From Escherichia coli (lineage in GTDB: Bacteria; Pseudomonadota; Gammaproteobacteria; Enterobacterales; Enterobacteriaceae), in NCBI RefSeq assembly GCF_009931435.1, contig NZ_CP043414.1: a DNA stretch of 64,000 nucleotides; one strand, given 5' to 3'. Of this stretch, positions 17,008 to 57,287 are shown piece by piece. How positions within the stretch are numbered: position 1 is the first letter of the stretch; each line of letters starts with the position of its first letter. Both the position numbers and the translations under genes were made by a program. Below the pieces are notes generated by a model that worked only from the letters and a program-made list of their open reading frames with translations, was not told where the DNA came from and made no database searches.

Positions 17008-17176
17008 AGGTATTAAACATGAGTCATATTTACTCCAAGAGAAAACACTCCTTCTGTAATTAAACCTTCATCTCCTTCGGGGTGAGCAATACATAATGCA
17101 TCTTGCTATGCAAAACAGGTGGATATCAATTTTCCTCCCGACCTATTTAATAAAACGTGAATATAAAAGTTATTCT

Positions 17177-17899: not shown

Positions 17900-17997
17900 T
17901 ACGTTCTCCTTCAAATGTGTTCGGAGAGAGAATAGAACTTTATGATTGGTTCCAGTATCCTGCTTTCAATGTACTCAATGGTTAGCGGCATTAAACA

Positions 17998-18897
17998 ATG
18001 AAAATCGATCTTAATCTTTTACCCATTTTTATCGCGGTAGCAGAAGAGAGTAATTTCAGTAAAGCCGCCGCACGACTGGGCGTTACCCGTTCAGCGGTCA
18101 GTCAGGGAATAAGACGTCTTGAAGATGCATTCGGGACAATGCTTGTAATGCGGACCACGCGCTCAGTTAATTTGACGGAAGCGGGAGAACGGCTGCATAA
18201 ATCGTTGTCATTACCTTTATCCGGTATTGAGGCAGCGTTCGAAGAGATGGTCTCTGACCATGTACCACGTGGACATCTCAGAATCGCGGTGACGTCGATA
18301 GCAGAAGAATTTCTTTCAGGTCCGCTAATCGCTTCGTTTGCAGCTGCCAATCCAGCCGTTACGCTTGATATTGTTGTCACGGATGAGGAATTCGATATCG
18401 TTGCCGCAGGTTACGATGCTGGCGTAAGGCTCGGAGAGGTCATTGAAAAAGACATGATTGCTGTTCCCCTTACCGGTAAGCAGCGTGAGATGGTCGTTGC
18501 CTCTCCCTCCTATCTCGCAGCCAACAGCACACCTGTTCATCCGCGCGAACTTGTGAATCATAAGTGTATCGGCTGGCGTCAGTCCCCGGAGGTTGCGCCT
18601 TATCGCTGGCCATTTGAAGAAAACGGTAGAGCTTTCGACCTTGCGATTGAACCGCAGATTACGACGAATGATCTGCGTCTGATGTTGAGGCTGGCTCTTG
18701 CCGGCGGAGGAATAACAATTGCCACTCAGGAAACGTTCAGGCCATATATTGAAAGCGGTAAGCTTGTATCGCTGCTTGATGACTTTCTTCCACAATTTCC
18801 GGGCTTCTATCTGTATTTCCCACAGCGTCGCAATATTGCACCAAAGCTCCGCGCCCTGATTGACCACGTCAAGGAATGGCGGCAGCAATTGGCTTAA
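17998..18897 (+). CDS. LysR-family transcriptional regulator
   Basis: 299 aa, HTH near N-terminus (FSKAAARLGVTRSAVSQGIRRLE); divergently transcribed from the SDR gene. Confidence 0.8.
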   Translation: MKIDLNLLPIFIAVAEESNFSKAAARLGVTRSAVSQGIRRLEDAFGTMLVMRTTRSVNLTEAGERLHKSLSLPLSGIEAAFEEMVSDHVPRGHLRIAVTSIAEEFLSGPLIASFAAANPAVTLDIVVTDEEFDIVAAGYDAGVRLGEVIEKDMIAVPLTGKQREMVVASPSYLAANSTPVHPRELVNHKCIGWRQSPEVAPYRWPFEENGRAFDLAIEPQITTNDLRLMLRLALAGGGITIATQETFRPYIESGKLVSLLDDFLPQFPGFYLYFPQRRNIAPKLRALIDHVKEWRQQLA

Positions 18898-19024
18898 ATG
18901 TCTGCACCTGCACTGCCTGATGTCAGAACAGTATTTTGAGAAATTGCCAGGGTTACAATGGCACAAATACGGCACAGGAGGAAAACGTGGTGTAATTGAA
19001 TGTGAGGTAACTTATTGATTTAAA

Positions 19025-42029: not shown

Positions 42030-43103
42030 TTACGAAAGCCCGCTCCCCGCAAGGACTGACGCCAGATACTTTCTGTCCATGGCTGCTTTTCGCATCTTAC
42101 GTCTTAACCCTGCCTTGAATACCTTATCATTCGTCAAAATATTAATTGCGATGTGCCGTATCCCTGAAAATAATTCTGCTGCATTTCCTCTTCTTATTTT
42201 GCAGTCGTCTTCATTCATTACCACGTCCAGACGCCAGTGCAGCTTATTCTCCACGTGCCAGTGGTTTCGGATTGCTGTGGCGAACTTCTCTGCGGTTAAA
42301 TCAGCAGAACTGATATAATATCTGACCGTCATTTCTGGCTCTTTCTTTTGTTCTGCTATTATTGACCGAAAGGAGACTGCCACGCATAATTTCTTCAGAC
42401 CTTTCCATTCAAACGTGAAATCAATAAGTTCATCAGGGACATCGCAAACAATGTGAAGACGGATTTCTTCTCTGCCGTGACTCTTTTCACTAATTGCGTA
42501 ACTGTCATGCTCTGGATTATTTAATTCTTTCAGCGGAAATTTTTCCTCGAAGCCTTTATTTAGCCGCCCCTGGTTTCCTTTTACAGCGAATAAATAATCA
42601 CCTCCCTGTTTTTGTATCTTCTCTGCAATATCTTTCTGGCAACCCATCGCATCAGTTGTGATGATTTTTCCTTTAATATCCAGCATGTTAAGAAGTTCTG
42701 GGATAGCTGTAATCTCATTGGATTTCTCATCCGTCTTGATCTGTCCGATGACCAGACTGTGCATTGTTGAGAACGCACTAATGACATGAATCGCTCCCCT
42801 GCGGCGACTCTTGTCATAAGAGTGCCGGAGCGTTTTTCCATCAATTGCAATGACGCCTTTATCATCTGAAGAATGGCAGTCACGCATCCAGTTAATAAAG
42901 CACTCGTGAAATTTTGCAGGACTGATACAGGATACAACTCTGGCAATGGTATCGTGAACAGGAATACCATTTTCAAAATCACCATATTGCTTCAAAAAAT
43001 CGAGATGTGTTTCCCCAAAATCCTCTATATCTTCCCAACCTTCTGCACCCGAAATAACGGCGCAAATAGTCAACAGTAGAATATCCGATAATTTATGTTC
43101 CAC
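42030..43103 (-). mobile_element. ISAs1-family (H-repeat-associated) transposase, intact ORF
   Basis: 357-aa ORF recognised as H-repeat/ISAs1 transposase ([39 protein letters not shown]...); lies next to the Rhs genes. Element ends (inverted repeats) not determined. Confidence 0.8.
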
Positions 43104-43310
43104 TTTCTAGGCTTGTCTGTAATCGGGGATAATAGAAATATGTTCCATCAATTTTTTAAGTTCCATTTTGTTCTCCTTAATTATGTAAGGAGTATTTGAT
43201 CATGTATAAGCAATAAAAAACAGCTTCAGGTAATGAGGAATATCTCAATTTTTAAACATAAAATGCGAATTGTTTAGTACAAAAAAGCAGCGTTACGTGA
43301 TCTTTCCCTG

Positions 43311-43414
43311 CCAGCCCCTCCGGGTTGACCTGCTCCGTCACCCGCAGAACCCTGCACAATATCCAGTCCCTTGCAGGTCATGTCACCCTGCCGCGCCGCC
43401 GGTTTTCCGCTCAT
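43311..43414 (-). pseudogene. Orphan Rhs 5' fragment (Rhs upstream region + first 22 codons fused to a short internal Rhs piece)
   Basis: Minus strand 43414 down to 43345 near-identical to the Rhs2 start ([13 protein letters not shown][C][11 protein letters not shown]) and preceded by the same upstream sequence (CATGGTTTATTCCT); 43344-43311 matches an internal Rhs segment (…[11 protein letters not shown]…) read out of frame; stop soon after. Confidence 0.55.
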
Positions 43415-43546
43415 GGTTTATTCCTTTTCTTTTACCTTACATGGCCATACAAATAGTTACCTATACTGTCTTTGAATATTGCCCTATCATTTAAAGCCCA
43501 CCTAATTTTTGCGACAGCAAAGGGATTTCTTTTTTAATCCAATCTA

Positions 43547-43939
43547 TCATTTCATTTTTTTAAAACATACGTTAATGCCATTCACACTTCCACATTCACC
43601 AAAAGCATCAAAATAAATTTCACATTTATTGTTGCCTTTCGAAATGATGCTAACCCCCCATCTTATATTGTTATATTTTTCTTTTCTGAAATACTTCATT
43701 TGCAATAAATCAATTATCTTACCCGCATAGAGATCGCTAAGTTCATTCACCACCACTTTATATCTGTATATTTCATTAAGACCTTCCTTGCTAAGCGGAA
43801 CTAACGTGGTAACATACGATGGAAGATTAACTACCTCTATCGTTTTCACGCTATCTATTCCACACAATTCATTCACTCGCCCCATCCCCAATACCGAACC
43901 AGAAAATAGAGACAATAAAACCATCAAATATTTCATCAT
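43547..43939 (-). CDS. Putative secreted immunity protein for the Rhs2 C-terminal toxin
   Basis: Track ORF starts at GTG 43951, overlapping the Rhs2 stop; ATG at 43939 has a GAGG SD. Sec signal peptide (MMKYLMVLLSLFSGSVLG), about 130 aa, AT-rich, immediately 3' of the Rhs2 toxin domain. No recognised family. Confidence 0.55.
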   Translation of the reverse strand: MMKYLMVLLSLFSGSVLGMGRVNELCGIDSVKTIEVVNLPSYVTTLVPLSKEGLNEIYRYKVVVNELSDLYAGKIIDLLQMKYFRKEKYNNIRWGVSIISKGNNKCEIYFDAFGECGSVNGINVCFKKMK

Positions 43940-43950
43940 AAAAAACCTCA

Positions 43951-46900
43951 CTATTCTGGCGTACCCGTTATTGTCATCGTCTGCAACGGTCCATCCACCC
44001 GATAAAAAGGCAGTCCACTATGAGCTCCTCTGACACACTCATCTAAAGTTTTCGCCGCACGCGATTCAATTATTGTAATAACCCTTGCCTCTTCTTTATT
44101 ATCATATTTCTTATCCGTCCGACTTAAAAGAGCCATGAAATTTTCTTTATCAAGAAGGTAATACTGTGCATGTGCAAACTCATGCCCCAAACCTAATGCA
44201 GGCGATTGTGATTTCGAGTTTAATTCAGTTGAACAAAATAAAGACGCTCTACTATTCCAATATATCGTCATATTATTCGAATTAAATCTACCATTGGTTC
44301 CTTCAATATACTCTATATTTATAGTTTCTTCAGAGCTTGATAAAAAATCTATAGCATCTTTCATTCGTGAATCTTTTTCTAAATACTTAACAGCCTGATT
44401 AAAATCACTTGGATCACCATTAACCTCGAATTTTAAACCCAAAGAATCTATAAACCGAACAGGGTTTAATGGATATTTATACAGATTCCATTCACCTCTT
44501 AGCCCGATTGGATCCTGCGTGATATACCTCCCCTGCAACGGGTCATAGTACCGGTGACGGTTGTAGTACAGCCCCGACTCCTCATCATACTGCTGCCCTG
44601 GCAGACGGTACGGCTGTTGCAGGTGCTCCGGGTTTTCCTCTCCCAGCAGGTTTCCCCACTCGTCATACTCCCCGCGCCACGCCGTTTCCCCTTCCGGGCT
44701 GATAAGCGCCTGCGGCAGCCCACGGTGGTCACAGTGGTAAAGATGAAGTTTCCTCTCCGGGATGTATTCTTCCTCCATCTGGTTGTTCATCTGTTCCGCC
44801 GTCAGCCCGCACTGCGCAAGCCATGCTTCACTCTCCGCACTCACCGCACCCGCGCGCAGTTCCCGCTCCAGCCTCCCCAGCATCACCGACAGCTCCGCCG
44901 GGAGCGTCACACCCGTGTCCTCCTGCAACACCTCCGCCAGGCTACGGTGCCGCGCCTTCGCCTGTTCGCCATTCTCTGTTTCGATTCTCAGGAGCGGCGT
45001 GAAGCTTCCCGGCTGATAAATCGTCTGGATACGTGTGGTGCCGGTCTGTACCGTCGTCAGCCTGTCACCGTCCCACCCGTACCATGTCTCCTCCGGTTTA
45101 CGCGACAGCGACATCCATCCCGTCAGGTCACGCTCCCGCCGCCACACCCGTTTTCCCGTCCTGCGGCCCAGCGGGTCGTAAAGGTAGCGGCTCTCCACCT
45201 GCGGCTCGCCGTGCTGTATCCGCGTGTAGAACACCAGACGGTGCTGGCTGTCGTAATGGTAGTGGTGGGTGCGCTCGTCGTGCATCCGTATCACCCCTTC
45301 CGGGATACGGTCCGTCTTCTCCGCCAGCCTGCCGTATTCATCGTGGCGGTAGACATAGTGCGCATCTTCCGCGATGCGGTTATCCGGCCACGCCGTGAAG
45401 GTGCTGTCCGGGTGCAGTTCCGGGTCCGGCAGCCGGTTTCCTGCCGGGTCCGTCGCATACGGGATATCAATGTCCAGGTTCGCTGCCGTGGTGTGGACGC
45501 CCGTCAGCCTTCCCGTGTCGCTGTAACGGTACTCCCGGCTCTCCTGCGGGCCGCTGATACGCACCAGTTGCCCGTTATCATTCCACGTATACTCACGGTC
45601 AAGCTGCGGAAGGTTCAGGTGCCTGCTCCGGAGCTGGCCTGTGAGGGTGTATGTGCTGGTCAGTTCATATGCGGCATTACTGCCTGCCATGCTGCCGAAG
45701 CTGCGCACCGTCTCACGGTGCAGCCTGTCCCGCGTGTACTCGACCAGCGGCGTTCCGCCCAGCTTCATCCCCGCAAGATAACCGCTGCCATACGTCAGCC
45801 ACTCCACCGGCGGCAGACCGTCCGGCTCCTGACGGGTCGCCAGCCCCTGTTCGCTGTACGCGTGCCCCGTCTCATGCTCCCACAGCATCTCCCCCGTCTC
45901 CGGGTTCTCCACCGTCTGCCGTTCGCCCGTCAGGCGGCCCTTATCGTCATAGCCGTAGTGGACCGCCACACGGTGGCCTTCACTGGTATGGCTGAGGGTG
46001 GTTAACCACCCGTGCTCATCATACTGCCACTGCTCTGCCGCTTCGCCGTTCACCGTCCGGTGCGTGATGCGGTCCGACGCATCGTAGTGCCAGAGGGTGA
46101 TAAGTCCCTCGTCTTCACTGCGGACAAGCTGCCCTGTGGCGCTGTACCGGTAACGCTGTGTCCGTCCGTCAAAGCCGCGCTGCTCCGTCAGGCGGTCCAC
46201 CGGGTCATACAGGAACGTGGACTGGCTGCCGTTCTCATTAGTCAGCGTGGTGATGCGCCCGGCGGCGTCATACCCCATGCTGCGCGTCAGACCGCCCTGC
46301 GTGGTGCTGATAGCTTTACCCCACGCATCATACTGTGTCTCACTGCGGCTGCCGTTCGGGGCAATGATAGCGGTGAGGTCGCCTGCGGCGCTGTACTCAT
46401 AACGGGTTTCACGCCCCTGCACATCCTTCTGACTGACCAGTTGACCACGCGGGTTATAACTGCTGTAAGTGCTGATGCCTTCTTCCCGGTGAACCGCCGT
46501 CCTCTGCCCGTACCGGTCGTACTCATACCGTGTCGTGTACCCCGAGCAGTCCGTGAAGGCCAGCAGTTGACCGTAGCGGCTCCATGCCATCTGTTTTGTA
46601 CTGCCCGTCGCATCCTGTATCCCTGTCGGCAGCTCACTCGCCGGGTCATCATAGCTGTACCGCGTCGTCTCACCGCTGCGCGAGGTCTCCGCCGCCAGCC
46701 TTCCCTTCTCATCATACTCCCGGCTGCTGCGAAGCCCGTCCGGGTACGTCACTGACGTCACCTGCCGCTGGCTGTTGTAGCCATACCGCACCGTCCTGCC
46801 GTCCGGCCCCGTCACCGCCGTCACCGCGCCCGACGCCATATGCAGGCTGTACTCCGTCCGCCGCCCCGCCGCATCCGTCTGCGCCTTCAGCCTCCCCGCC

Positions 46901-48207
46901 GCATCATACTCGCTGCGGGTGATGCTCCCGTCCGCATGCTCCTTCTTCACCACCCGCTTCAGGCCACCCTCGCCTTCCGTGTACAGCACCTCCCGCCTGT
47001 TCAGGCTGTCCGTGATGGTCACACGGTCCTGCCCGTACTCAAAGCGGTAGGCCAGCCCCTCCGGGTTGACCTGCTCCGTCACCCGACCGGTATCATCATA
47101 CCGGTAGCGGCTCTCCGGCCTCCCCGCATAATGGTGCGCCACCATCCGCCCGGCGTGCTCCGCATCATAAGTAAACCCGCGCACCTGCGTCCCGCTGCGG
47201 TCATACACCGCCAGCAACTCACCGCTGGCCGTGTACGTGTAGCGCGCCAGCGGCGCAGTCGGCTGTTCATCCGGGTATGCCGGGTCGTGTGTCAGCCACA
47301 CCGCCTCCAGCCGGATACCGTTATCGGCACCGTATTCTGTACCGGCGGGCAGCGTGTCGGGGAAAACCTGAGAAGAGGAAACAGAACGGGGACCGGCAGG
47401 GGAAGATAAAGACGTGGCGCGCTGTTTACGGCAGGCTTCCGCCCGCTGCGCCTGCGTGCTCAGCAACAGGTGAAAACGACGGCCCGCACCGTCCGTCCCC
47501 CCCGTCACCGCGCCCGCCACGTCACCCTCCGCTGCCCGGTGAAAGGCCAGCGTCCGACCAAAGCCATCCACCACGCCCGTCAGCACCCGGTATGCGGGCG
47601 GTTCCGGCGGCAGCACCTCGTCCGCCCCCGGCACCCGCTCCGGCCAGCTGAGTATCCACCACGGCCCCTGAAGGCTGTTTGTCGCCAGGTACACATGCGG
47701 ACTCAGGCGAACATCTTCCGGCAGCACCTGCCAGAGCGCGCTTAGCGGCTGCGAACTGTGCTGCTCCGCCCCCCCGCCCCGCGCCAGCCAGAACGACTCG
47801 CTGCGGCTGTAGCTTATCTCGCCGGGAAACAGCGGCTCAAAGTGAATGCTCCTGCCGCCGTTGTCGTTGAGTATCAGTTCCCGCTCATGAACCTGTAAGC
47901 GGATATCGAAGGGCGCTTTCCAGCCGGGGCCGAACACGCCCACCGGCGCGGGCGTCCTGGTCCGGTAACTGCTGTAAGCGCGGGAAAGAATAAACGGCAG
48001 CGGGCCGGGCAGTGCCAGGTCCGTCTCGCCCGGCAGCACCTTCGCACCCAGCACCGGGTTCACCGGGTTAGCATAGGTAATCCCTCCCGGACACACCGAG
48101 CAGGCCACTCCCGTCGGCGCACCTATCAGCACCCCTGCTGAACCCTGCACAATATCCAGTCCCTTGCGGGTCATGTCGCCCTGCCGCGCCGCCGGTTTTC
48201 CGCTCAT
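43951..48207 (-). CDS. PAAR-Rhs polymorphic toxin (Rhs2), HExxH-containing C-terminal domain
   Basis: 1418 aa; N-terminus carries a literal PAAR motif ([13 protein letters not shown]...GSAGVLIG); long YD-repeat core; core ends [27 protein letters not shown]; last about 160 aa unique, with HEFAH. Confidence 0.9.
44497..47450. repeat. Rhs core direct repeat, copy A (paired with 50623-53580)
   Basis: Track shows identical 483-aa antisense ORFs at 44554-46005 and 50680-52131, so at least 1.45 kb is nucleotide-identical between the two Rhs genes; flanking core highly similar with scattered substitutions. Outer boundaries approximate. Confidence 0.8.
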
Positions 48208-48330
48208 GGTTTATTCCTCTTCCTCTGAATAAACTTATTTTTGATGCACTAATGATTTTCAAAAGAGATTTATATTTAACGACAATTCAGCACTTTTAAT
48301 GTAAAAGATCCCCGGCTGAATGATATTCAC

Positions 48331-49323
48331 TCATTGTTTGTTATCAGAAAGTGTTTTATACAGCGGCACATATCCCACGTCTTCCACAAGACTTTGCCCC
48401 TGAGGGCTTAAAAACCAGTCCACTAGTTTTTGTGTTTCCGGTGTCGGCTTTTCGCGGGTGACCATGTAGGCATCCACCACATACGGATAAGTACCGTTGC
48501 GGATATTCTCCACCGTTGGTGCAATACCATTTATTGCCAGCAGCTTAAGATTTGGGCTTATATCCTTATTCATCTGTGTGACATAATAGCGGAAGGTGTA
48601 ACCAATTGAAGGCTGCGTATTCCGGTAGGCAATTACTTTGGTTAACACTCCATTCATAAGGCTTACTTCTGTAGATGTTCTGGCGGGTAGCATCGGTGTC
48701 TCTTTCATCACCTTTGCCAGCATCACCGTCTGGCTACCGGAATCTTCCGGACGCTGCCAGACCTGAATGCGCTCATCACTGCCACCAACCTGACTCCAGC
48801 GGGTGATTTTACCGCTGAAGATATCCCGAACCTGCTGTTCAGTAAAAGAACTGACCGGATTACTGGCGTTAACGATAAAAACAAAGGCTTCGTGGGCGAA
48901 GGGGGTATAAACCAGTTTCACCCCGGCATCGGCAGCCCGTTGTTTTTGTCCTGCGGAAGGCTGGGCAACAAAAATAACATCGGCCTGGCGCTTTATGAGA
49001 TCATTATAGGCTTCTGGTGTACGAGTCGGATACATATAATTCAAACCCGGATCTTGATGGTTATCCCCGGGGATCAAATATCGGTAAGCTGAAGCATACA
49101 GTGGATATAACGCGGTTGCACCACATACCCGGGGCCATTTATTCGAGTTATCAGTGTAGCGTAAAGTGGGTTCTCCTCGTATATTGGTTTTCTCCCAACT
49201 CACTGTTTCTTTTACGCTGTTATCGCCCCCGCCGTCTACACATCCTGACATTAATACCGTCATATAAAATAATACTGGTAACAGGCCCACCCTACGCATA
49301 CAATGATTTAATAAATACGCCAT
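48331..49323 (-). CDS. PstS-like (phosphate-binding-protein fold) putative lipoprotein, orphan
   Basis: Track ORF 48331-49365; start placed at ATG 49323 (GAGG SD 5-6 nt upstream) giving MAYLLNHCMRRVGLLPVLFYMTVLMSGC with lipobox-like LMSGC; PstS-like motifs (VIFVAQPSAGQ..., FTEQQVRDIFSGKITRWSQVGGSDERIQVW); no ABC transporter genes nearby. Confidence 0.55.
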   Translation of the reverse strand: MAYLLNHCMRRVGLLPVLFYMTVLMSGCVDGGGDNSVKETVSWEKTNIRGEPTLRYTDNSNKWPRVCGATALYPLYASAYRYLIPGDNHQDPGLNYMYPTRTPEAYNDLIKRQADVIFVAQPSAGQKQRAADAGVKLVYTPFAHEAFVFIVNASNPVSSFTEQQVRDIFSGKITRWSQVGGSDERIQVWQRPEDSGSQTVMLAKVMKETPMLPARTSTEVSLMNGVLTKVIAYRNTQPSIGYTFRYYVTQMNKDISPNLKLLAINGIAPTVENIRNGTYPYVVDAYMVTREKPTPETQKLVDWFLSPQGQSLVEDVGYVPLYKTLSDNKQ

Positions 49324-49627
49324 ATACCTCACTCTAAAATATTGATTATATAAATACATATGCATAATTATATTTACATCAAATTCTGAATGAACAATTT
49401 AAATTTAGAGAAAGTGAAATTTAATTTTTCGATACTTCCGCATACATATTCCCCTCGCTAAAAAATCATCATTCCACAATCAATCATTAATTACAACTCA
49501 ATATACATCATTTAACTTTCATTAAACTCGCAATTTATTATTACATTGTAGCCATTATGAACTGTCATCACGCACACACTCTACATACACATTAGAAACA
49601 ATATAACCCCATGAGCCATCCTCCGTT

Positions 49628-50074
49628 TCAATACTTAGTGCAGCGTGTCTTAAGGAAATTAGAAGCCACAACATCAATCTTTTCTTTTAAGACTAAATCA
49701 TCCACATAATCACAAGACAAATAGAAGTCATTACCATCGGCCATTATAAATATCCTCATAGGTAAAGATTTATCATTATCAACATGAGCATTCGTAATAA
49801 TCCAATAATAAGGAAATCTAACATTTTTTGTAGGAATACCCAATAAATCATAAGCTTTATTATTATATTCTATCGCTCCCTTAACAAACGTTGGTTTGAC
49901 CTCCTTACCAATAATGCGATGCGACGTATATTCTTCCTTCTCAGCAAACGATTGCATTAATGCCCATATAGGTTTATTTGCCAGCTCACCGTGATGAAAA
50001 ATCCGATAAAAATACACTCCTAAAAAAAATATTAAGCCTAAGCAAACCAATACCATGAGGCAGTTCTTACTCAT
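49628..50074 (-). CDS. Putative membrane-anchored immunity protein for the Rhs1 C-terminal toxin
   Basis: 148 aa; ATGA start/stop overlap with Rhs1; single N-terminal TM helix ([19 protein letters not shown]); AT-rich. No recognised family. Confidence 0.55.
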
Positions 50075-53000
50075 TGATTAAAATCCGTAAAATTAGAAGG
50101 AACAGGGCCATTCTCAGGTGAAAACAATGGAGATGTATTTGATACTCGTGATGCTATCATTTCTACAGTAGCAGGAAGATACATTGGCATTCCATTATCA
50201 CCACCTAGCGGATCAGTTGAAGTTAAAATTTCATTTATTGAATCTACTGAGACTCCCGCATGCAACATTGCCTCAATAACCATTGTTGCACAATTGTGCG
50301 TAAAATAGTTATAGTCACTTCTATCTACTTTATATTTTTCATCAATGTACTTAATCATTGCTTTCTCTTGTTCTGGCGTGGTTTTAATTGTATATATCCT
50401 CGTGCTTCTACGTTGTGCTTGTTCAGTTAAATAAGCTATGACACTCCCTCCACGTGGGGTAGCGGTTCCATAGCTATATACCCCTTTTCCAGTAAATGCC
50501 ATCGCAGAATGCCCTAATGGATTACCACTCGTGGGTCCCCCAGCAAAAATAAGGGTATCCAAACCAAGTGGATCTATATTTATAGTTGGATTCCACGGAT
50601 ATTTATAAAGATTCCATCCCCCCGCAAGCCCGATTGGATCCTGCGTGATATACCTCCCCTGCAACGGGTCATAGTACCGGTGACGGTTGTAGTACAGCCC
50701 CGACTCCTCATCATACTGCTGCCCTGGCAGACGGTACGGCTGTTGCAGGTGCTCCGGGTTTTCCTCTCCCAGCAGGTTTCCCCACTCGTCATACTCCCCG
50801 CGCCACGCCGTTTCCCCTTCCGGGCTGATAAGCGCCTGCGGCAGCCCACGGTGGTCACAGTGGTAAAGATGAAGTTTCCTCTCCGGGATGTATTCTTCCT
50901 CCATCTGGTTGTTCATCTGTTCCGCCGTCAGCCCGCACTGCGCAAGCCATGCTTCACTCTCCGCACTCACCGCACCCGCGCGCAGTTCCCGCTCCAGCCT
51001 CCCCAGCATCACCGACAGCTCCGCCGGGAGCGTCACACCCGTGTCCTCCTGCAACACCTCCGCCAGGCTACGGTGCCGCGCCTTCGCCTGTTCGCCATTC
51101 TCTGTTTCGATTCTCAGGAGCGGCGTGAAGCTTCCCGGCTGATAAATCGTCTGGATACGTGTGGTGCCGGTCTGTACCGTCGTCAGCCTGTCACCGTCCC
51201 ACCCGTACCATGTCTCCTCCGGTTTACGCGACAGCGACATCCATCCCGTCAGGTCACGCTCCCGCCGCCACACCCGTTTTCCCGTCCTGCGGCCCAGCGG
51301 GTCGTAAAGGTAGCGGCTCTCCACCTGCGGCTCGCCGTGCTGTATCCGCGTGTAGAACACCAGACGGTGCTGGCTGTCGTAATGGTAGTGGTGGGTGCGC
51401 TCGTCGTGCATCCGTATCACCCCTTCCGGGATACGGTCCGTCTTCTCCGCCAGCCTGCCGTATTCATCGTGGCGGTAGACATAGTGCGCATCTTCCGCGA
51501 TGCGGTTATCCGGCCACGCCGTGAAGGTGCTGTCCGGGTGCAGTTCCGGGTCCGGCAGCCGGTTTCCTGCCGGGTCCGTCGCATACGGGATATCAATGTC
51601 CAGGTTCGCTGCCGTGGTGTGGACGCCCGTCAGCCTTCCCGTGTCGCTGTAACGGTACTCCCGGCTCTCCTGCGGGCCGCTGATACGCACCAGTTGCCCG
51701 TTATCATTCCACGTATACTCACGGTCAAGCTGCGGAAGGTTCAGGTGCCTGCTCCGGAGCTGGCCTGTGAGGGTGTATGTGCTGGTCAGTTCATATGCGG
51801 CATTACTGCCTGCCATGCTGCCGAAGCTGCGCACCGTCTCACGGTGCAGCCTGTCCCGCGTGTACTCGACCAGCGGCGTTCCGCCCAGCTTCATCCCCGC
51901 AAGATAACCGCTGCCATACGTCAGCCACTCCACCGGCGGCAGACCGTCCGGCTCCTGACGGGTCGCCAGCCCCTGTTCGCTGTACGCGTGCCCCGTCTCA
52001 TGCTCCCACAGCATCTCCCCCGTCTCCGGGTTCTCCACCGTCTGCCGTTCGCCCGTCAGGCGGCCCTTATCGTCATAGCCGTAGTGGACCGCCACACGGT
52101 GGCCTTCACTGGTATGGCTGAGGGTGGTTAACCACCCGTGCTCATCATACTGCCACTGCTCTGCCGCTTCGCCGTTCACCGTCCGGTGCGTGATGCGGTC
52201 CGACGTATCGTAGTGCCAGAGGGTGATAAGCCCCTCGTCTTCACTGCGGACAAGCTGCCCTGCGGCGCTGTACCGGTAACGCTGTGTCCTGCCATCAAAG
52301 CCGCGCTGCTCCGTCAGGCGGTCCAGCACATCATAGGTAAACTCACTCCGGCTGCCGTTCTCGTTGGTCAGCACGGTGATGCGCCCGGCGGCGTCATACC
52401 CCATGCTGCGCGTCAGCCCGCCCTGCGTGGTGCTGACGGCCTTTCCCCACGCATCATACTGTGTCTCACTGCGGCTGCCGTCCGGGGCAATGATAGCGGT
52501 GAGGTCGCCTGCGGCGCTGTACTCATAACGGGTTTCACGCCCCTGCACATCCTTCTGACTGACCAGTTGACCACGCGGGTTATAACTGCTGTAAGTGCTG
52601 ATGCCTTCTTCCCGGTGAACCGCCGTCCTCTGCCCGTACCGGTCGTACTCATACCGTGTCGTGTACCCCGAGCAGTCCGTGAAGGCCAGCAGTTGACCGT
52701 AGCGGCTCCATGCCATCTGTTTTGTACTGCCCGTCGCATCCTGTATCCCTGTCGGCAGCTCACTCGCCGGGTCATCATAGCTGTACCGCGTCGTCTCACC
52801 GCTGCGTGAGGTCTCCGCCGCCAGCCTTCCCTTCTCGTCATACTCCCGGCTGCTGCGCAGCCCGTCCGGGTACGTCACTGACGTCACCTGCCGCTGGCTG
52901 TTGTAGCCATACCGCACCGTCCTGCCGTCCGGCCCCGTCACCGCCGTCACCGCGCCCGACGCCATATGTATCCGGTACTCCGTCCGCCGTCCCGCCGCAT

Positions 53001-54342
53001 CCGTCTGCGCCTTCAGCCTCCCCGCCTCATCATACCCGCTGCGGGTGATGCTCCCGTCCGCATGCTCCTTCTTCACCACACGCTTCAGGCCACCCTCGCC
53101 CTCCGTGTACAGCACCTCCCGCCTGTTCAGGCTGTCCGTGATGGTCACACGGTCCTGCCCGTACTCAAAGCGGTAGTCCAGTCCCTCCGGGTTGACCTGC
53201 TCCGTCACCCGCCCGGTATCATCATACCGGTAGCGGCTCTCCGGCCTCCCCGCATAATGGTGCGCCACCATCCGCCCGGCGTGCTCCGCATCATAAGTAA
53301 ACCCGCGCACCTGCGTCCCGCTGCGGTCATACACCGCCAGCAACTCACCGCTGGCCGTGTACGTGTAGCGCGCCAGCGGCGCAGTCGGCTGTTCATCCGG
53401 GTATGCCGGGTCGTGTGTCAGCCACACCGCCTCCAGACGGATACCGTTATCGGCACCGTATTCTGTACCGGCGGGCAGCGTGTCGGGGAAAACCTGAGAA
53501 GAGGAAACAGAACGGGGACCGGCAGGGGAAGATAAAGACGTGGCGCGCTGTTTACGGAAGGCTTCCGCCCGCTGCGCCTGCGTGCTCAGCAACAGGTGAA
53601 AACGACGGCCCGCACCGTCCGTCACCCCCGTCACCGCGCCCGCCACGTCACCCTCTGCCACCCGGTGGAAAGTCATCGTCCGACCAAAGCCATCCACCAC
53701 GCCCGTCAGTACCCGGTATGCGGGTGGCTCCGGCGGCAGCACCTCGTCCACTTCCGGCACCCGCTCCGGCCAGCCGAGCACCAGCCACTGCCCGGTTGTG
53801 CTGACAGCCATCATATAGGTGTGTGGACTCAGGCGGACCGCTTCCGGCAGCGCCCGCCAGAACCGCGCAAGCGGGTGTCCTTTATGCTGTTTCAGCACCC
53901 CGCCCCGCGCCAGCCAGAACGACTCGCTGCGGCTGTAGCTTATCTCGCCGGGAAACAGGGGTTCAAAGTGGATGCTCCGGCCACCGCTGTCGTTAAGTAT
54001 CAGTTCACGCTCACAAATCTGTAAGCGGATGTCGGAGGGGGCTTTCCAGCCGGGGCCGAATATCCCCACCGGGGCTGGCGTCTTCGTCCGGTAACTGCTG
54101 TAGGCGCGGAAAAGGATGAACGGCAACGGGCCGGATAGTGCCAGGTCGGTTTCAGCAGGCAGTACCTTCGCTCCCAGCAGCGGGTTTACCGGATTGCCAT
54201 ATTTCGGCGTGGCTTCCCCTGTGGGACACACCGAGCAGGCAACCCCCGTCGGCGCACCTATCAGCACCCCTGCTGAACCCTGCACAATATCCAGTCCCTT
54301 GCGGGTCATGTCACCCTGCCGCGCCGCCGGTTTTCCGCCCAT
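50071..54342 (-). CDS. PAAR-Rhs polymorphic toxin (Rhs1), His/Cys-containing C-terminal domain
   Basis: 1423 aa; PAAR motif at N-terminus ([13 protein letters not shown]...); YD-repeat core; core ends [27 protein letters not shown]; last about 162 aa unique (…[11 protein letters not shown]…[11 protein letters not shown]…); GAAGGA SD; 75 nt downstream of vgrG. Confidence 0.9.
50623..53580. repeat. Rhs core direct repeat, copy B (paired with 44497-47450)
   Basis: See copy A; same orientation, about 6.1 kb apart. Confidence 0.8.
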
Positions 54343-54417
54343 GAATCAATTCCTTCTGCTTTTAATATGGTTCATCTGGCCACTGCACCAGTTCCGTTTT
54401 AATTTTTTGCACCTGAC

Positions 54418-56559
54418 TCAAAATTGCCGCATATCCGGCATTCCGGGGGGTAAATCTTTCGGCACAGGCGCATCCGGCACAGGTTGTGTGGCACCACAGT
54501 TCCAGTTAATCACCGGCGCATCACCGTTCACATCCGACTCCCCTTCCAGATGAATGTGCGTACCATTAAGAAATATGCTTCCGTCCTTCGTCAGCACCAG
54601 CCTTGCCTTACCACAGCAGAGTTCAAGATGCTCACCGGCAGAATAAACTGCTGTTTGTCCGGTGTTTTCCTTCATCGTCTTGCCCACCGAGAAGGTGACG
54701 TTATTCCCTACATTGACGCTGTAGCCCATTCCCACCATCAGTGATTTATGCAGCCCTACCTGTGAGGACTGCAACAACGCCACCGAGGTATTCATAATGC
54801 CGCCTACCGTCGTCTGGTAAGCCACGCCCACCGTCAGCGCACGAATGATCCCCACCTTTTCAACCTGGTTTGATCCCACTTTGATAATCTGGTTACTGCC
54901 CACCGTTTCCACCTGGTTGACACCAACCGTCTGTATCTGATTAACGCCAATGTTCTGGATCTGGTTATTGGTAACGGTGATCGCCTGGTTGTTACCTATT
55001 TTTTCGGCATGGTTGTTTATCACATCAGTGGTGCGGTTATTCAGCACCTCGGTGTTCATGTTCTTCTGCGCGTGGATGTAGACCTGTTCTTTCCCTGTCG
55101 CATCGTCAAACTTCAGTTCATTAAACCCGCTGCCCTTATAGGTTTTCGAACGAATGGTCATCTGCGTCTTTGTTCCCGGCAGGCTGCCGGGGGTGCGGTT
55201 TTCCTGGTGGTAGGTACGCCCCATAATAATCGGCTGGTCCGGATCGCCGTTGAGGAAGTCCACAATGACCTCCTGACCCACACGCGGTATCGCCAGGTTA
55301 CCAAACCCGGTGCCTGCCCACGCCTGTGCCACACGGATCCAGCATGAACTGTCCTGGTTTGACGGGTTATAACGGTCCCAGTTAAATTTCACCCGCACGC
55401 GGCCATGTTCATCACAGAAGATTTCTTCTCCTGCCGGTCCCGTCACGACGGCGCTCTGCGGGCCATCCACCAGCGGTTTCAGCAACGGCTGTGGCCGCCA
55501 TGTTCTGTCTGCCGGTATTACCGCAAAGTGGTTATTCAGCGTGGTACCTGAACCCCTGCGTCCCGGCACCGCCTGCGGCTGCTCGCCGTGCAGTTCACTT
55601 GCCACCACCTGCCATTCCCGGTTCAGGTTCGCCTGCGGATGCCCCGTCAGCGCAATTCGCCGTCCCGGCCATATCTCCGGAGAACGGCTTGTTCCGCGCG
55701 CCACTTCTGCGTTGTTTCGCCAGCCATCCATCTGCCAGCGGGCAAAGTTCTGCCCGTGGGCACCCTTGAAACGTCCGGGGTAGTCATACACTTCATACTG
55801 TGTGCGCTGGTAATCCTGGTACTGGCCTTCCTGATCAAAACGCCCTGCCCAGCCGGGTCGTTTAAAGGTGTAGTCCTTGGTCACCACGGAAGAAGGGCGG
55901 ATTTGTGCGCTGTAGCGGAACTGGCTGATGCATAGGGTGCTCACCTCGGTACGGGTGTTCGGATTCCAGGGGATCTCAAAGGACTCCGGCAGATAACGCA
56001 CGGTGTCGCACAGGACCAGGCTCTGGTCGGTACTTTTTTGCGCGTGCTCCTCATAAAAGAAGATGCCTTCCTCCGCCGCCATCCGGCACAGGAAATCGTA
56101 ATCGGTTTCGCCGTACTGGACACAAAACTCACGGGAAGGATGCGGCTCGCTGAACAGCGGACTCCACTCGGTCACCCCGTTTTCTTTCAGGATCGTCGCG
56201 AGTATGCTTTCGATGTCCTCATTCTGGAAGATACGGAAGTTCTGGCGCAGCCCTGTGCGCCACAGCGGTGGGCATACCTTCATGCTGTACAGCATCTGGT
56301 TTTTGTCGTTCTCCCCCAGTTCAAACCAGGTCACCACACCTTTCACCCGGCGCTGTACGTCATCGCCCTGCCATATCGTCAGGTAGGCCATTTTGTCCAG
56401 CACCTGCGCAAATTCAAGGGAGAGAAACTGCTGGCTGACCAGAGAGAGATCGAGGGAAAAGAGCGAAGAGAGTGACTGGTTCAGATGAAAGGAGACCACC
56501 GCAAACGCGTCCGGTGGCAGGCCGTCCACTTCCAGCGTGAAACGTAATCCGGTTGACAT
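54418..56559 (-). CDS. vgrG: VgrG (TssI) spike protein
   Basis: 713 aa; gp27/gp5-like region and C-terminal beta-helix repeats (VGVNQVETVGSNQIIKVGSNQVEKVG); no large C-terminal effector extension. Confidence 0.9.
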   Translation of the reverse strand: MSTGLRFTLEVDGLPPDAFAVVSFHLNQSLSSLFSLDLSLVSQQFLSLEFAQVLDKMAYLTIWQGDDVQRRVKGVVTWFELGENDKNQMLYSMKVCPPLWRTGLRQNFRIFQNEDIESILATILKENGVTEWSPLFSEPHPSREFCVQYGETDYDFLCRMAAEEGIFFYEEHAQKSTDQSLVLCDTVRYLPESFEIPWNPNTRTEVSTLCISQFRYSAQIRPSSVVTKDYTFKRPGWAGRFDQEGQYQDYQRTQYEVYDYPGRFKGAHGQNFARWQMDGWRNNAEVARGTSRSPEIWPGRRIALTGHPQANLNREWQVVASELHGEQPQAVPGRRGSGTTLNNHFAVIPADRTWRPQPLLKPLVDGPQSAVVTGPAGEEIFCDEHGRVRVKFNWDRYNPSNQDSSCWIRVAQAWAGTGFGNLAIPRVGQEVIVDFLNGDPDQPIIMGRTYHQENRTPGSLPGTKTQMTIRSKTYKGSGFNELKFDDATGKEQVYIHAQKNMNTEVLNNRTTDVINNHAEKIGNNQAITVTNNQIQNIGVNQIQTVGVNQVETVGSNQIIKVGSNQVEKVGIIRALTVGVAYQTTVGGIMNTSVALLQSSQVGLHKSLMVGMGYSVNVGNNVTFSVGKTMKENTGQTAVYSAGEHLELCCGKARLVLTKDGSIFLNGTHIHLEGESDVNGDAPVINWNCGATQPVPDAPVPKDLPPGMPDMRQF

Positions 56560-56768
56560 AGCAACCTCCGGGTTTAAGGAAAAACAGACAGTTCGCTGTT
56601 AAAGCGGCTGTAACAGTACAGTGTTACGCTTGCGTTCAGGCACGCTACCGCCGAAGTTTCCGGCATCCGCCATCTCCCGTGAACGTAACCCCTTACTGAC
56701 AACCTTTCTTTTTACGGCGTAATACAAAAACAGCATCCGGCCTGATAGCCGGATGCTGTTGGCTTAAC

Positions 56769-57287
56769 TTATGCTTCCAGCGGTGCGCGCCAGTCGTCGG
56801 CACCGGAGGTGCCAGATTTGACGTGTTCCCACTCAATCTTGCGGTAGGCCAGTGAAACTTCGAGCAACTGGGTGAACTCGCGTTTCGCCGGGTCCTGGCA
56901 ATGCGGCATATGCAGTTTCATATCGACAATCGTCGAATCAGTCAGGCGGGTGGTGAAATAATGCTCCTGTTTGCCTTCCACAGATGTACGCCACCAGTGC
57001 AGTTCAGTGGTTGGCAGCATTTCACCGGAGGCCAGTGCGTTGTACATCAGCGGAACCGCTTTGTTCAGCGCCACGGTAAAAATGAACGGCTTGTGAGCAC
57101 GCTGACCCGCAGGCTGACCGGACTGAGGATCGGTCGGGACAGTAACGTTATGCAGGAATTCCTGCACCAGCATCTCGTCTTCGTGCCCCTGCACATAGAT
57201 GTTGCCGACAGAATCAGCGGTAAATGCACCTGCAGTAATATTTCCCTGGGTCTGACCAGTGATGGAGATATAACACGGTGTTGGCAT
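56769..57287 (-). CDS. hcp: Hcp (TssD) tube protein
   Basis: 172 aa, Hcp1-family sequence (MPTPCYISITGQTQGNITAGAFTADSVGNIYVQGHEDEMLVQEF...); directly upstream of vgrG. Confidence 0.85.
   Translation of the reverse strand: MPTPCYISITGQTQGNITAGAFTADSVGNIYVQGHEDEMLVQEFLHNVTVPTDPQSGQPAGQRAHKPFIFTVALNKAVPLMYNALASGEMLPTTELHWWRTSVEGKQEHYFTTRLTDSTIVDMKLHMPHCQDPAKREFTQLLEVSLAYRKIEWEHVKSGTSGADDWRAPLEA

What the first reader, a model, noticed from the sequence alone, without database searches (positions are those of the whole stretch)
44497..53580. Roughly 3 kb direct repeat between the two Rhs cores, with at least 1.45 kb identical
The ORF track gives identical antisense translations for 44554-46005 and 50680-52131, so this stretch is nucleotide-identical in both genes, flanked by highly similar core sequence, in the same orientation about 6.1 kb apart. 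This is a substrate for homologous recombination that would delete or swap the intervening toxin, immunity and lipoprotein genes, and for gene conversion. It is also an assembly-collapse risk, so the two-copy structure should be confirmed.
Basis: seen in the sequence. Interest (0 to 1): 0.45.

Follow-up and report, generated by a model that had tools for sequence, protein, structure and literature searches.

The report
Tandem Rhs toxin genes, partly homogenised
Two complete Rhs toxin genes sit head-to-tail behind one type VI secretion spike gene in an Escherichia chromosome; they share a real 3.75-kb repeat whose last 1.6 kb is identical, an ordinary if neatly documented example of how these toxin arrays grow and recombine.

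Summary
The direct repeat is 3.75 kb (44471-48208 = 50597-54343), 95.4% identical, with a 6,126-bp period. It contains a 1,579-bp exact block (44501-46079 = 50627-52205) that abuts the core/tip boundary. It lies in two intact, same-strand Rhs genes in the array hcp-vgrG-rhs2-imm2-(PstS-like lipoprotein)-rhs1-imm1-(rhs 5' remnant)-ISAs1. The exact block is not ordinary core conservation: no rhs copy in 5,426 complete E. coli genomes matches it better than about 94.4% over its full length. It therefore reflects recent exchange between the two copies. The array is probably not a duplication. The tssB-hcp-vgrG-leader stretch and the body of the downstream gene are both 99.0-99.7% identical to strain 2013C-4282, where they are contiguous. 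The 5' part of the upstream gene is only 83.5% identical to that strain. This suggests that a 6.1-kb cassette (rhs2 body, tip2, imm2, lipoprotein gene) entered by a crossover in the conserved first ~100 nt of the ORF. Independent short-read assemblies (one contig seen in 8 samples) break exactly where this structure predicts, which argues against a simple assembly artefact. Rhs-mediated recombination, tip displacement and multi-rhs arrays are all published, so interest is low to moderate.

The parts
44471..48208 (-). Direct repeat, downstream copy (core plus N-terminal region of rhs1)
   Evidence: Self-BLAST: 95.36% over 3,748 columns against 50597-54343; identity profile.
50597..54343 (-). 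Direct repeat, upstream copy (core plus N-terminal region of rhs2)
   Evidence: period 6,126 bp.
44501..46079 (-). 1,579-bp block exactly identical to 50627-52205 (3' end of the core, ending at the DPIGL codons)
   Evidence: Best full-length match elsewhere in 5,426 E. coli genomes is 94.4%. P ~5e-35 under random mismatch placement.
50627..52205 (-). Partner of the identical block, in rhs2
   Evidence: the 31-mers are shared from 50627 onward.
43951..48207 (-). rhs1: intact 1,418-aa Rhs protein. It has a PAAR-like N-terminus ([11 protein letters not shown]), DUF6531, YD repeats and a DPIGL boundary. The 182-aa tip1 carries an HEFAH motif.
   Evidence: Pfam RHS_repeat 1.8e-74, DUF6531, RHS. NCBIfam RHS_core 2,603 bits against a cutoff of 2,000. 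Tip has a weak Peptidase_M91 match, 20.4 bits, below cutoff. Sequence.
50071..54342 (-). rhs2: intact 1,423-aa Rhs protein directly downstream of vgrG. The 184-aa tip2 has a Lnb_N/DUF4105 (TseH-like) domain.
   Evidence: 2,549 bits. Tip2 matches Lnb_N at 31.2 bits against a cutoff of 22.2. Its closest relatives are only 66% identical.
43547..43951 (-). imm1, the gene RefSeq names 'RHS element protein dsORF-h1'. It has a signal peptide. Here an A7 (vs A8) run truncates it.
   Evidence: Annotation in L010, L001 and L013; frameshift shown.
49628..50074 (-). imm2: 148-aa ORF with an N-terminal hydrophobic segment. It overlaps the rhs2 stop by 4 nt and is the putative cognate immunity gene.
   Evidence: no family match. 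The function is inferred from position only.
48331..49365 (-). PstS-family / PBP_like_2 protein with a lipoprotein-type signal (…VLMSGC); cargo gene between the two rhs genes
   Evidence: Pfam PBP_like_2 5e-32; NCBIfam PstS family 128 bits, below cutoff. Homologues (61-66% aa) in other genera are not next to rhs/vgrG. In Escherichia sp. MOD1-EC7003 the homologue follows glgA-glgP.
54269..54364 (-). 5' box of rhs2, with the vgrG-type leader (…ggaattgattcATGGGC)
   Evidence: Alignments.
48134..48222 (-). 5' box of rhs1, with the 'downstream-type' leader (…aggaataaaccATGAGC)
43310..43434 (-). Remnant of a third rhs: downstream-type leader plus the first ~75 nt of the ORF, fused to a 35-nt core piece (identical to 47051-47085), then the ISAs1 flank
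   Evidence: The same remnant is in 2020CK-00188, annotated there as an incomplete hypothetical protein. In JP538 the same leader heads a full-length rhs.
54418..56559 (-). vgrG (713 aa), 710/713 identical to the VgrG of E. coli 2013C-4282
56769..57287 (-). hcp
   Evidence: Pfam T6SS_HCP 5.2e-31.
42030..43166 (-). ISAs1-family (H-rpt) transposase gene closing the Rhs element; codon 20 is TAG where the relative has TGG
   Evidence: Pfam DDE_Tnp_1; sequence; the mismatch at 43108 against 2020CK-00188.

Best explanation
This is a two-cassette Rhs array at the vgrG end of an Escherichia type VI secretion cluster. SHOWN: two intact rhs genes, each with its own tip and small downstream ORF, lie in tandem and share a 3.75-kb repeat. 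INFERRED, step 1: the downstream gene (rhs1, tip1, imm1/dsORF-h1, remnant, ISAs1) is the resident one. A 6,126-bp unit was inserted between the resident leader and the resident gene body. The unit comprises the rhs2 body, tip2, imm2, the PstS-like gene, a spacer and a 'downstream-type' leader. Insertion was by one homologous crossover (a circle integrating) within the conserved first ~100 nt of the ORF, the stretch that encodes the PAAR-like motif. The newcomer took the vgrG-proximal slot, and the resident gene was pushed downstream but kept its own ribosome-binding site and start codon. INFERRED, step 2: the two allelic cores then exchanged sequence. They are now a mosaic of alternating tracts, and the 3' 1,579 bp up to the end of homology (the DPIGL boundary) is identical, which indicates recent gene conversion. 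CONSEQUENCE (from established knowledge of RecA-dependent recombination and of Rhs loci): the repeat can loop out a 6.1-kb circle that carries a complete hybrid rhs-tip2-imm2-cargo cassette, leaving a hybrid rhs-tip1 gene on the chromosome. Such deletants lose imm2, so siblings that still fire Rhs2 should select against them.
For: Structure. The exact block is population-polymorphic: best 94.4% over its full length among 11,414 rhs places in 5,426 genomes; non-random, P ~5e-35. Identity to 2013C-4282 by segment: housekeeping flank 97.3%; tssB-C 99.7%; hcp 99.6%; leader+vgrG 99.0%; rhs2 N-term 83.5%; rhs1 N-term 99.4% (4 mismatches in 680). VgrG is 710/713 identical. Leaders: every vgrG-linked rhs examined (window rhs2, 2013C, STEC276, JP538 upstream) has …gattcATGGGC; every downstream copy or remnant (window rhs1, window remnant, JP538 downstream, L010 and L013 remnants) has …aaaccATGAGC. 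The window's rhs1 therefore joins a downstream-type leader to a body that is vgrG-linked in 2013C and STEC276. All parts of the proposed insert lack close relatives in complete E. coli genomes: the unique segment has no match, the rhs2 N-term reaches at most 93.2%, and tip2 reaches at most 66% aa. The resident parts do have close relatives: tip1, imm1, remnant and ISAs1 are 99.6% identical to 2020CK-00188, and at least 80% of that query is covered in 1,016 genomes. Mosaic tracts. Within-genome tandem pairs have the longest exact runs (1,579 bp here, 510 bp in JP538) against 95-400 bp for 13 between-genome pairs. Independent read sets. Published mechanism: a circle carrying core, tip and intervening genes integrates by a single crossover (Jackson 2009, PMC2935791); rhs main/orphan recombination is selected in Salmonella (PMC3967940).
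Against: The direction of the event is inferred by parsimony only. Excision at the 5' box from a window-like array would give the same leader/body junction seen in 2013C-4282. 2013C-4282 is not a true ancestor: its tip differs and its 3' core is only 92.3% identical. The T/C site at +29 varies in the population, so the crossover can be placed only between +5 and about +104. Tracts where rhs2, not rhs1, carries the 2013C-like allele (19 sites at 46291-46200) need extra exchanges or a resident allele that differed from 2013C. In the closest tip1-bearing relative, the core is identical to the window only for the last 263 nt and then differs by about 6%, so the polarity of conversion in the 3' block is unresolved. 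No full-length rhs1 or rhs2 protein is on record elsewhere. No plasmid or phage carries the cassette. Expression and secretion of either gene are untested.
Confidence: 0.65

Rival explanations
1. Jackson-type integration with the crossover inside the core. In this reading rhs2's 5' part is resident. A circle carrying the rhs1-type 5' part, a core fragment, tip2, imm2 and the PstS-like gene integrated by a crossover within the now-identical 3' core.
For: This is the published model for rhs loci (PMC2935791). The long identical 3' block is the most efficient place for a crossover. The rhs2 leader and ATGGGC are the resident vgrG type.
Against: The incoming rhs1-type 5' end would have to match, by coincidence, the same strain type (2013C-4282, 99.4%) as the resident hcp-vgrG (99.0-99.6%), while the housekeeping flank is only 97.3% identical and other strains' vgrG only 97.5%. 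A single crossover only swaps sequence, so it does not explain why the 3' block is identical in both copies.
Confidence: 0.15
2. In-place tandem duplication of one resident rhs gene, followed by replacement of one copy's tip and divergence of the N-terminal regions.
For: Tandem duplications are frequent in bacteria (discussed in PMC3967940). The 3' 1.58 kb is identical and the middle is 96.6% identical.
Against: The 5' 700 nt are only 83% identical while the 3' end is 100% identical, which cannot be clock-like divergence from one duplication. The differing sites sort into allelic tracts already present in other strains. The two leaders differ and belong to two population-wide types. The segment between the copies has no counterpart in 5,426 E. 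coli genomes.
Confidence: 0.05
3. Assembly artefact: one rhs gene was duplicated or made chimeric by the assembler, or the exact 1,579-bp identity was created by consensus polishing with multi-mapping reads.
For: The identical block is longer than short reads. Full-length rhs1 and rhs2 proteins are not on record in public assemblies. The look-up for a collapsed 1,579-bp contig product found nothing (inconclusive). An A7/A8 homopolymer difference in imm1 hints at a long-read assembly with residual errors.
Against: Two distinct 5' ends, two distinct tips and four distinct junctions exist, so only one linear path uses all the unique segments. An independent contig found in 8 read sets equals 48189-50656 at 100% identity. 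It ends exactly where the 31-mers become shared with 43395 and 44501, so those samples contain the same junctions and the same first 30 nt of the block next to both tips. The copies keep 163 differences elsewhere, so nothing was homogenised wholesale.
Confidence: 0.07

Closest known systems
E. coli Rhs elements: GC-rich core, AT-rich tip, downstream ORF, H-rpt/ISAs1, vgr/hcp linkage (Hill and co-workers; reviewed in Jackson et al. 2009, PMC2935791)
   Same: Every classical component is present. The cores are 62-66% GC and the tips 34-37% GC. There are YD repeats and a DPxGL boundary. A small downstream ORF is named dsORF-h1 by RefSeq. An ISAs1 element closes the locus and hcp-vgrG lies upstream. 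Both proteins pass the NCBIfam 'RHS element core protein' equivalog cutoff.
   Different: Two full-length genes lie in one element, and a PstS-like lipoprotein gene lies between them. The tip2-imm2-lipoprotein module is absent from 5,426 complete E. coli genomes.
C-terminal displacement through a circular intermediate (Jackson et al. 2009, Figure 6 model)
   Same: A unit made of core, tip and intervening genes is flanked by direct repeats of rhs sequence. It fits a single-crossover integration that pushes the incumbent downstream without deleting it. The cores of the two copies are identical next to the tips, as that paper reports for attached and dissociated tips.
   Different: In the published model the displaced copy is a silent core fragment plus tip. 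Here the displaced copy is a complete gene with its own leader, ribosome-binding site and start codon. The inferred crossover lies in the first ~100 nt of the ORF, not in the core, so a whole gene rather than a tip was displaced.
rhs-main / rhs-orphan recombination in Salmonella Typhimurium LT2 (Koskiniemi et al. 2014, PMC3967940)
   Same: Same-orientation rhs homology within one locus serves as a substrate for recombination that changes which toxin tip is fused to the delivery core. Loss of an immunity gene is the cost.
   Different: In LT2 the homology is 522 bp at 95% identity and the second copy is an orphan fragment. Here it is 3.75 kb, including 1,579 bp at 100%, and both genes are complete. 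No recombinants were observed here.
rhsA/rhsB unequal crossing-over in E. coli K-12 (Lin, Capage & Hill 1984, as cited in PMC2935791)
   Same: RecA-dependent crossing-over between near-identical rhs cores in direct orientation; this is the origin of the name 'rearrangement hot spot'.
   Different: Those copies are far apart on the chromosome and produce large duplications. Here the copies are 6.1 kb apart, so the products would be a small deletion or circle, or a local amplification.
Multi-rhs arrays downstream of vgrG in other E. coli
   Same: JP538 and ES4 carry two 'RHS element core protein' genes at this same locus. The rhsE-type locus of O177:H21 carries serial rhs pieces. STEC O22:H8 is described with vgrG1-eagR and three rhs/immunity pairs (bioRxiv 10.1101/2024.03.05.583533).
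   Different: In JP538 the copies are separated by an immunity ORF, ISAs1 and dsORF-h1. They are 88.8% identical and their longest exact run is 510 bp. The window's pair is far more homogenised and has different cargo.

Membership tests
Rhs element core protein (E. coli-type, T6SS-linked) | Full-length match to the curated RHS core model | tested here: met
   NCBIfam NF041261 scores 2,603 and 2,549 bits against a cutoff of 2,000, covering profile positions 1-1261.
Rhs element core protein (E. coli-type, T6SS-linked) | YD/RHS repeats plus an RHS-associated core domain ending in DPxGL, with unrelated C-terminal tips beginning there | tested here: met
   Pfam RHS_repeat, 10 stretches each, and PF03527. 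DPIGL lies at aa 1232 and 1235; the proteins diverge at the next residue, with 4-13 of 50 residues identical afterwards.
Rhs element core protein (E. coli-type, T6SS-linked) | GC-rich core joined to an AT-rich tip and downstream region | tested here: met
   GC is 0.61-0.67 in the cores and 0.34-0.37 at 43500-44499 and 49000-50499.
Rhs element core protein (E. coli-type, T6SS-linked) | Genetic linkage to hcp/vgrG and a T6SS cluster | tested here: met
   hcp and vgrG lie immediately upstream. tssB/C/E/F homologues are annotated at the same position in related loci.
Rhs element core protein (E. coli-type, T6SS-linked) | The tip is a toxin neutralised by the product of the downstream ORF, and delivery depends on the T6SS | not testable with these tools
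   Only domain hints are available: Lnb_N/TseH-like for tip2 and a weak HExxH Peptidase_M91 match for tip1. The immunity ORFs match no family.
C-terminal displacement product (Jackson 2009) | The downstream (displaced) copy is a 5'-truncated core fragment plus tip, silent for lack of a start | tested here: not met
   rhs1 is a complete 1,418-aa ORF with its own leader (GAGGAA…ATG) and PAAR-like N-terminus.
C-terminal displacement product (Jackson 2009) | Core sequence adjacent to the two tips of one locus is identical | tested here: met
   The 1,579 bp up to the tip boundary are identical in both copies.
C-terminal displacement product (Jackson 2009) | Circular episomal intermediate that integrates by a single crossover | not testable with these tools
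   The reciprocal leader/body combinations fit this, but no circle junction or episomal copy was found; plasmid and phage searches were negative.
Gene conversion / concerted evolution between paralogues | An identical tract far longer than the flanking divergence predicts | tested here: met
   1,579 bp against a mean of 134 and a maximum of 365 in 20,000 shuffles.
Gene conversion / concerted evolution between paralogues | The tract is variable among orthologues in other genomes, so conservation alone cannot explain the identity | tested here: met
   Best match over the full block is 94.4%; only 1 of 3,734 matching records has a best place of 95% or more. Between-genome pairs have exact runs of at most 400 bp.
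Gene conversion / concerted evolution between paralogues | Donor and recipient can be identified (non-reciprocal transfer) | tested here: inconclusive
   The last 263 nt match the tip1-linked haplotype of 2020CK-00188; the remainder matches no sampled genome. Tracts of both polarities occur further upstream.
Assembly artefact (collapsed or falsely duplicated repeat) | No independent support for the repeat/unique junctions | tested here: not met
   Independent k=31 contigs (one of them in 8 samples) reproduce both inner junctions and break at the predicted branch points.

The most novel reading that the evidence does not exclude
Rhs arrays of this clade may behave as recombinase-free cassette arrays. 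The conserved ~115-nt 5' box (about -17 to about +100, which encodes the PAAR-like start of the protein) recurs at the head of every cassette and as a terminal remnant after the last immunity gene. It would act as the shared 'attachment' homology through which whole rhs-immunity-cargo cassettes are excised as circles and inserted at the vgrG-proximal, expressed slot. Displaced but intact genes would then be kept compatible with the delivery machinery by bidirectional gene conversion of their cores. Whole-gene displacement would thus complement the published C-terminal displacement.
Probability: 0.3. Interest if true: 0.5.

Novelty: new member of a known kind. Interest (0 to 1): 0.28.

Why it matters
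Rhs toxins are interbacterial weapons whose diversity comes from recombination, not point mutation. This locus shows three steps of that process in one place: entry of a rare toxin/immunity cassette together with an unrelated cargo gene, survival of the displaced gene as a complete second effector behind a single VgrG, and homogenisation of the delivery cores. In practice the 1.6-kb perfect repeat makes the locus unstable and hard to assemble from short reads, since public k-mer assemblies break exactly at its edges. Strain comparisons and effector inventories that rely on draft genomes will therefore miss or mis-join such arrays. The underlying biology (rearrangement hot spot, tip displacement, orphan recombination) is already established, so the value is illustrative rather than conceptual.

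Tried and rejected
1. The repeat finder caps copies at 300 nt, so it split the repeat into pieces; I replaced it with self-BLAST and an in-register comparison.

2. Exact-protein look-ups for full-length Rhs2 and Rhs1 found nothing on record, so no independent full assembly exists in that collection.

3. I predicted that independent k=31 assemblies would hold a collapsed 1,579-bp contig encoding a 525-aa partial ORF. It was not found. This is inconclusive, because other rhs paralogues in those genomes could fragment the contig or the gene call could differ.

4. I looked for recombinant or deletion variants in complete E. coli genomes. None carries tip2, imm2 or the PstS-like gene. The closest relative, 2020CK-00188, has an unrelated deletion that fuses the truncated rhs to tagH.

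5. I looked for an episomal carrier of the cassette in plasmid and phage collections. There were only weak partial hits, in megabase-sized Escherichia records filed in the plasmid collection and in an unrelated Salmonella record.

6. Chi sites are absent from both repeat copies and from the unique segment.

7. I considered whether the PstS-like protein is a T6SS accessory. Its homologues in five other genera have no Rhs, VgrG or Hcp within 10 kb, so I rejected that and treat it as captured cargo.

8. I considered whether general core conservation explains the identity, and rejected it.

9. Promoter and terminator scans gave only weak consensus hits upstream of rhs1 and were not used as evidence.

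Full report
**1. The observation**

A self-comparison of the window gives a single long direct repeat, 44471-48208 against 50597-54343. It spans 3,748 aligned columns at 95.36% identity, with 163 mismatches and 3 gap openings, and the copies are offset by 6,126 bp. The longest exact run is 1,579 bp (44501-46079 = 50627-52205).

Identity falls in steps:

| Segment (rhs1 coordinates) | Identity between copies |
|---|---|
| 44501-46079 | 100% |
| 46080-47500 | 96.6% |
| 47501-48207 | 83.0% |

With the in-register mismatches placed at random, the longest identical run averaged 134 bp and never exceeded 365 bp in 20,000 shuffles; the analytic bound is about 5e-35. A third small homologous piece sits at 43310-43434.

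**2. What the repeat lies in**

All the genes are on the minus strand.

| Feature | Coordinates | Notes |
|---|---|---|
| hcp | 56769-57287 | |
| vgrG | 54418-56559 | |
| rhs2 | 50071-54342 | 1,423 aa |
| imm2 | 49628-50074 | small ORF overlapping the rhs2 stop; hydrophobic N-terminus |
| PstS-family gene | 48331-49365 | PBP_like_2 domain, lipoprotein-type signal |
| rhs1 | 43951-48207 | 1,418 aa |
| imm1 | 43547-43951 | small signal-peptide ORF |
| rhs 5' remnant | 43310-43434 | |
| ISAs1 (H-rpt) transposase | 42030-43166 | |
| yafV, ivy, fadE | further along | housekeeping flank |

Both Rhs proteins are complete. Each has a PAAR-like start (M[S/G]GKPAARQGD), DUF6531, ten YD-repeat matches, the RHS-associated core domain and the DPIGL boundary. 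Both exceed NCBI's curated cutoff for 'RHS element core protein' (2,603 and 2,549 bits against 2,000). They diverge at the residue after DPIGL.

Tip2 carries a Lnb_N/DUF4105 (TseH-like) domain above the Pfam cutoff. Tip1 has an HEFAH motif and a sub-threshold Peptidase_M91 match. The cores are 61-67% GC and the tip/immunity regions 34-37% GC. This is the classical Rhs element architecture.

The housekeeping flank is Escherichia coli-like, at most 98.6% identical to any complete genome. RefSeq names the imm1 gene 'RHS element protein dsORF-h1'.

**3. Is the two-copy structure real?**

The repeat has two different 5' ends (different leaders, and N-terminal regions 83% identical) and two unrelated 3' tips. 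All four repeat/unique junctions are therefore distinct, and only one linear path uses every unique segment.

There is independent support. The exact PstS-like protein occurs on short contigs from at least seven public short-read assemblies. One of these contigs, seen in eight samples, is 100% identical to window 48189-50656. A k=31 analysis of the window predicts both contig ends to the base. The 31-mer at 48188 is shared with the remnant at 43395, and the 31-mers from 50627 on are shared with 44501. Those read sets therefore contain the same inner junctions, the tip1-type copy and the remnant.

Some things could not be checked. The full-length proteins are not on record elsewhere. A look-up for the expected collapsed-block contig found nothing, which is inconclusive. 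No long reads were available. The exactness of the identity could in principle owe something to polishing. An A7-versus-A8 homopolymer difference in imm1 is the kind of residual error seen in long-read assemblies, or it is a genuine frameshift.

**4. The identity is not ordinary core conservation**

The 1,579-bp block finds 11,414 rhs places in 3,726 of 5,426 complete E. coli genomes. The best full-length match is 94.4%, and only one record's best place reaches 95% or more.

I aligned six rhs genes of this type. The 13 between-genome pairs are 88-95% identical, with longest exact runs of 95-400 bp. The two within-genome tandem pairs have the longest runs: 1,579 bp here and 510 bp in strain JP538, both in the 3' half of the core. 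The stretch is therefore polymorphic in the population but homogenised within this genome. That is the signature of recent gene conversion or crossing-over between the two copies. The tract stops exactly where homology stops, at the core/tip boundary.

**5. How the array probably arose**

The segment between the copies (tip2, imm2, the PstS-like gene and the spacer) has no megablast match in any complete E. coli genome. Tip2's nearest relatives are 66% identical fragments in Citrobacter. The rhs2 N-terminal region reaches at most 93.2% in complete genomes, though it is 98% identical to a partial protein from 'Escherichia sp. 0.2392'.

The other end is common. Tip1, imm1, the remnant and ISAs1 are 99.6% identical to strain 2020CK-00188, and at least 80% of that query is covered in 1,016 genomes.

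Identity to strain 2013C-4282, which has a single rhs at this locus, is the most informative comparison:

| Segment | Identity to 2013C-4282 |
|---|---|
| Housekeeping flank | 97.3% |
| tssB-tssC | 99.7% |
| hcp | 99.6% |
| leader + vgrG | 99.0% (VgrG protein 710/713) |
| rhs2 N-terminal region | 83.5% |
| rhs1 N-terminal region | 99.4% (4 mismatches in 680 nt) |

So a haplotype that is contiguous in 2013C-4282 (vgrG, leader, rhs body) is split in the window by about 6.1 kb.

The leaders agree with this. Every vgrG-linked rhs examined (window rhs2, 2013C, STEC276, JP538 upstream) has …ggaattgattcATGGGC. Every downstream copy or remnant (window rhs1, the window remnant, JP538 downstream, and the remnants in 2020CK-00188 and O177:H21) has …aggaataaaccATGAGC. 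The window's rhs1 thus joins a downstream-type leader to a body that is vgrG-linked in other strains. This is the reciprocal product expected if a circle carrying [rhs2 body-tip2-imm2-PstS-like-spacer-downstream leader] integrated by one crossover between +5 and about +104 of the ORF.

Excision in the other direction would produce the same junctions. I prefer insertion because the cassette is rare and the vgrG-linked rhs1-type body is common.

This is the circle-integration mechanism proposed by Jackson et al. 2009 (PMC2935791). The difference is that the crossover lies at the extreme 5' end, so a whole gene rather than a tip was displaced and the displaced gene stays intact.

**6. After insertion**

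At the 170 sites where the copies differ, the 5' ~680 nt are almost all 'rhs1 = 2013C-like'. Further in there are tracts of the opposite polarity: 4 sites at 47498-47086, 19 consecutive sites at 46291-46200, and 4 sites at 46165-46105. Then comes the fully identical block.

In the closest tip1-bearing relative, the core is identical to the window for only the last 263 nt and then differs by about 6%. Several exchanges, probably in both directions, are needed to explain this. Donor and recipient of the 3' block cannot be assigned with the genomes available.

**7. What the repeat can do**

A crossover in the identical block would leave an open 1,421-aa hybrid gene (rhs2 5' part with tip1) on the chromosome. 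It would release a 6,126-bp circle carrying an open 1,420-aa hybrid gene (rhs1 5' part with tip2) together with imm2 and the PstS-like gene. There are no Chi sites in the repeat.

From the established behaviour of rhs loci, such events are expected. Known examples are recA-dependent unequal crossing-over between rhsA and rhsB (cited in PMC2935791) and selected main/orphan recombination over only 522 bp at 95% identity in Salmonella (PMC3967940). Loss of imm2 should be counter-selected wherever siblings deliver Rhs2. None of this was observed directly: no recombinant was found in complete genomes, and the closest relative has an unrelated deletion fusing rhs to tagH.

**8. Comparison with what is known, and verdict**

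Every element is of a published kind:
- Rhs composite elements with H-rpt/ISAs1 and vgr/hcp.
- Tandem rhs genes and fragments: JP538 and ES4 carry two core genes at this very locus; O177:H21 has serial pieces; STEC O22:H8 is described with three rhs genes behind vgrG1-eagR.
- Circle-mediated displacement.
- Recombination between cores.

What is specific here is fourfold: a rare tip2/imm2 module, a captured PstS-like gene whose relatives sit elsewhere (after glgA-glgP in Escherichia sp. MOD1-EC7003), a crossover inferred at the 5' box, and an unusually long homogenised tract.

I classify it as a new member of a known kind, of low to moderate interest. The most novel reading not excluded is that the conserved 5' box serves generally as the shared homology of a recombinase-free cassette array. 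I give that a probability of about 0.3.

Noticed in passing
window 43310-43434 (minus strand): Remnant of a third rhs gene after imm1: a 'downstream-type' leader and the first ~75 nt of the ORF, fused to 35 nt identical to core positions 47051-47085, then the ISAs1 flank. In JP538 the same leader heads a complete rhs gene, so the array was once longer. O177:H21 has a differently truncated version.
   Followed up: yes
window 43107-43109 (minus strand), within the ISAs1 transposase gene 42030-43166: Codon 20 of the ISAs1/H-rpt transposase is TAG where strain 2020CK-00188 has TGG, so the transposase is probably inactive here.
   Followed up: partly
window ~43548-43560 (minus strand), 3' end of imm1/dsORF-h1: An A7 run where three other strains have A8. 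It shifts the frame and replaces the last ~20 residues (…CFKKMK* instead of …CFKKNEMIDWIKKEIPLLSQKLGGL*). This is either a real truncation of the immunity protein or a homopolymer sequencing error.
   Followed up: partly
window 48331-49365 (minus strand): The PstS-family/PBP_like_2 lipoprotein-type gene between the two rhs genes is absent from all 5,426 complete E. coli genomes at the DNA level. Its 61-66% identical relatives in Superficieibacter, E. albertii, Escherichia sp. MOD1-EC7003 and Phytobacter are not near rhs/vgrG. In MOD1-EC7003 the relative is a 509-aa ORF just after glgA-glgP. Its role in the cassette is unknown.
   Followed up: partly
window 56729-56760 (minus strand), between hcp and vgrG: A strong terminator-like hairpin (14 pairs, 8 of them G-C, followed by a T-run) lies directly after hcp. 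It is a possible attenuator setting the Hcp:VgrG/Rhs expression ratio.
   Followed up: no
L010 (E. coli 2020CK-00188) 16849-18996: In the closest complete genome the same locus has a deletion that fuses a 5'-truncated rhs (tip1 type) to a truncated tagH. The deletion removes vgrG, hcp and tssB-tssG, so the T6SS there is probably dead while the tip1/dsORF-h1 end persists.
   Followed up: partly
L011 (E. coli 2013C-4282) 4357-5679: A group II intron reverse transcriptase/maturase (ltrA) sits between the rhs-associated immunity region and ISAs1 at the orthologous locus. This is another sign that the end of the element accumulates mobile DNA.
   Followed up: no
L002 vs L003 (Logan contigs equal to window 48189-50656): One sample's contig has a 1-nt indel relative to the window. 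It changes the imm2 gene call from 142 aa to 109 aa, so imm2 may be disrupted in some carriers of the cassette, or this is a read error.
   Followed up: no
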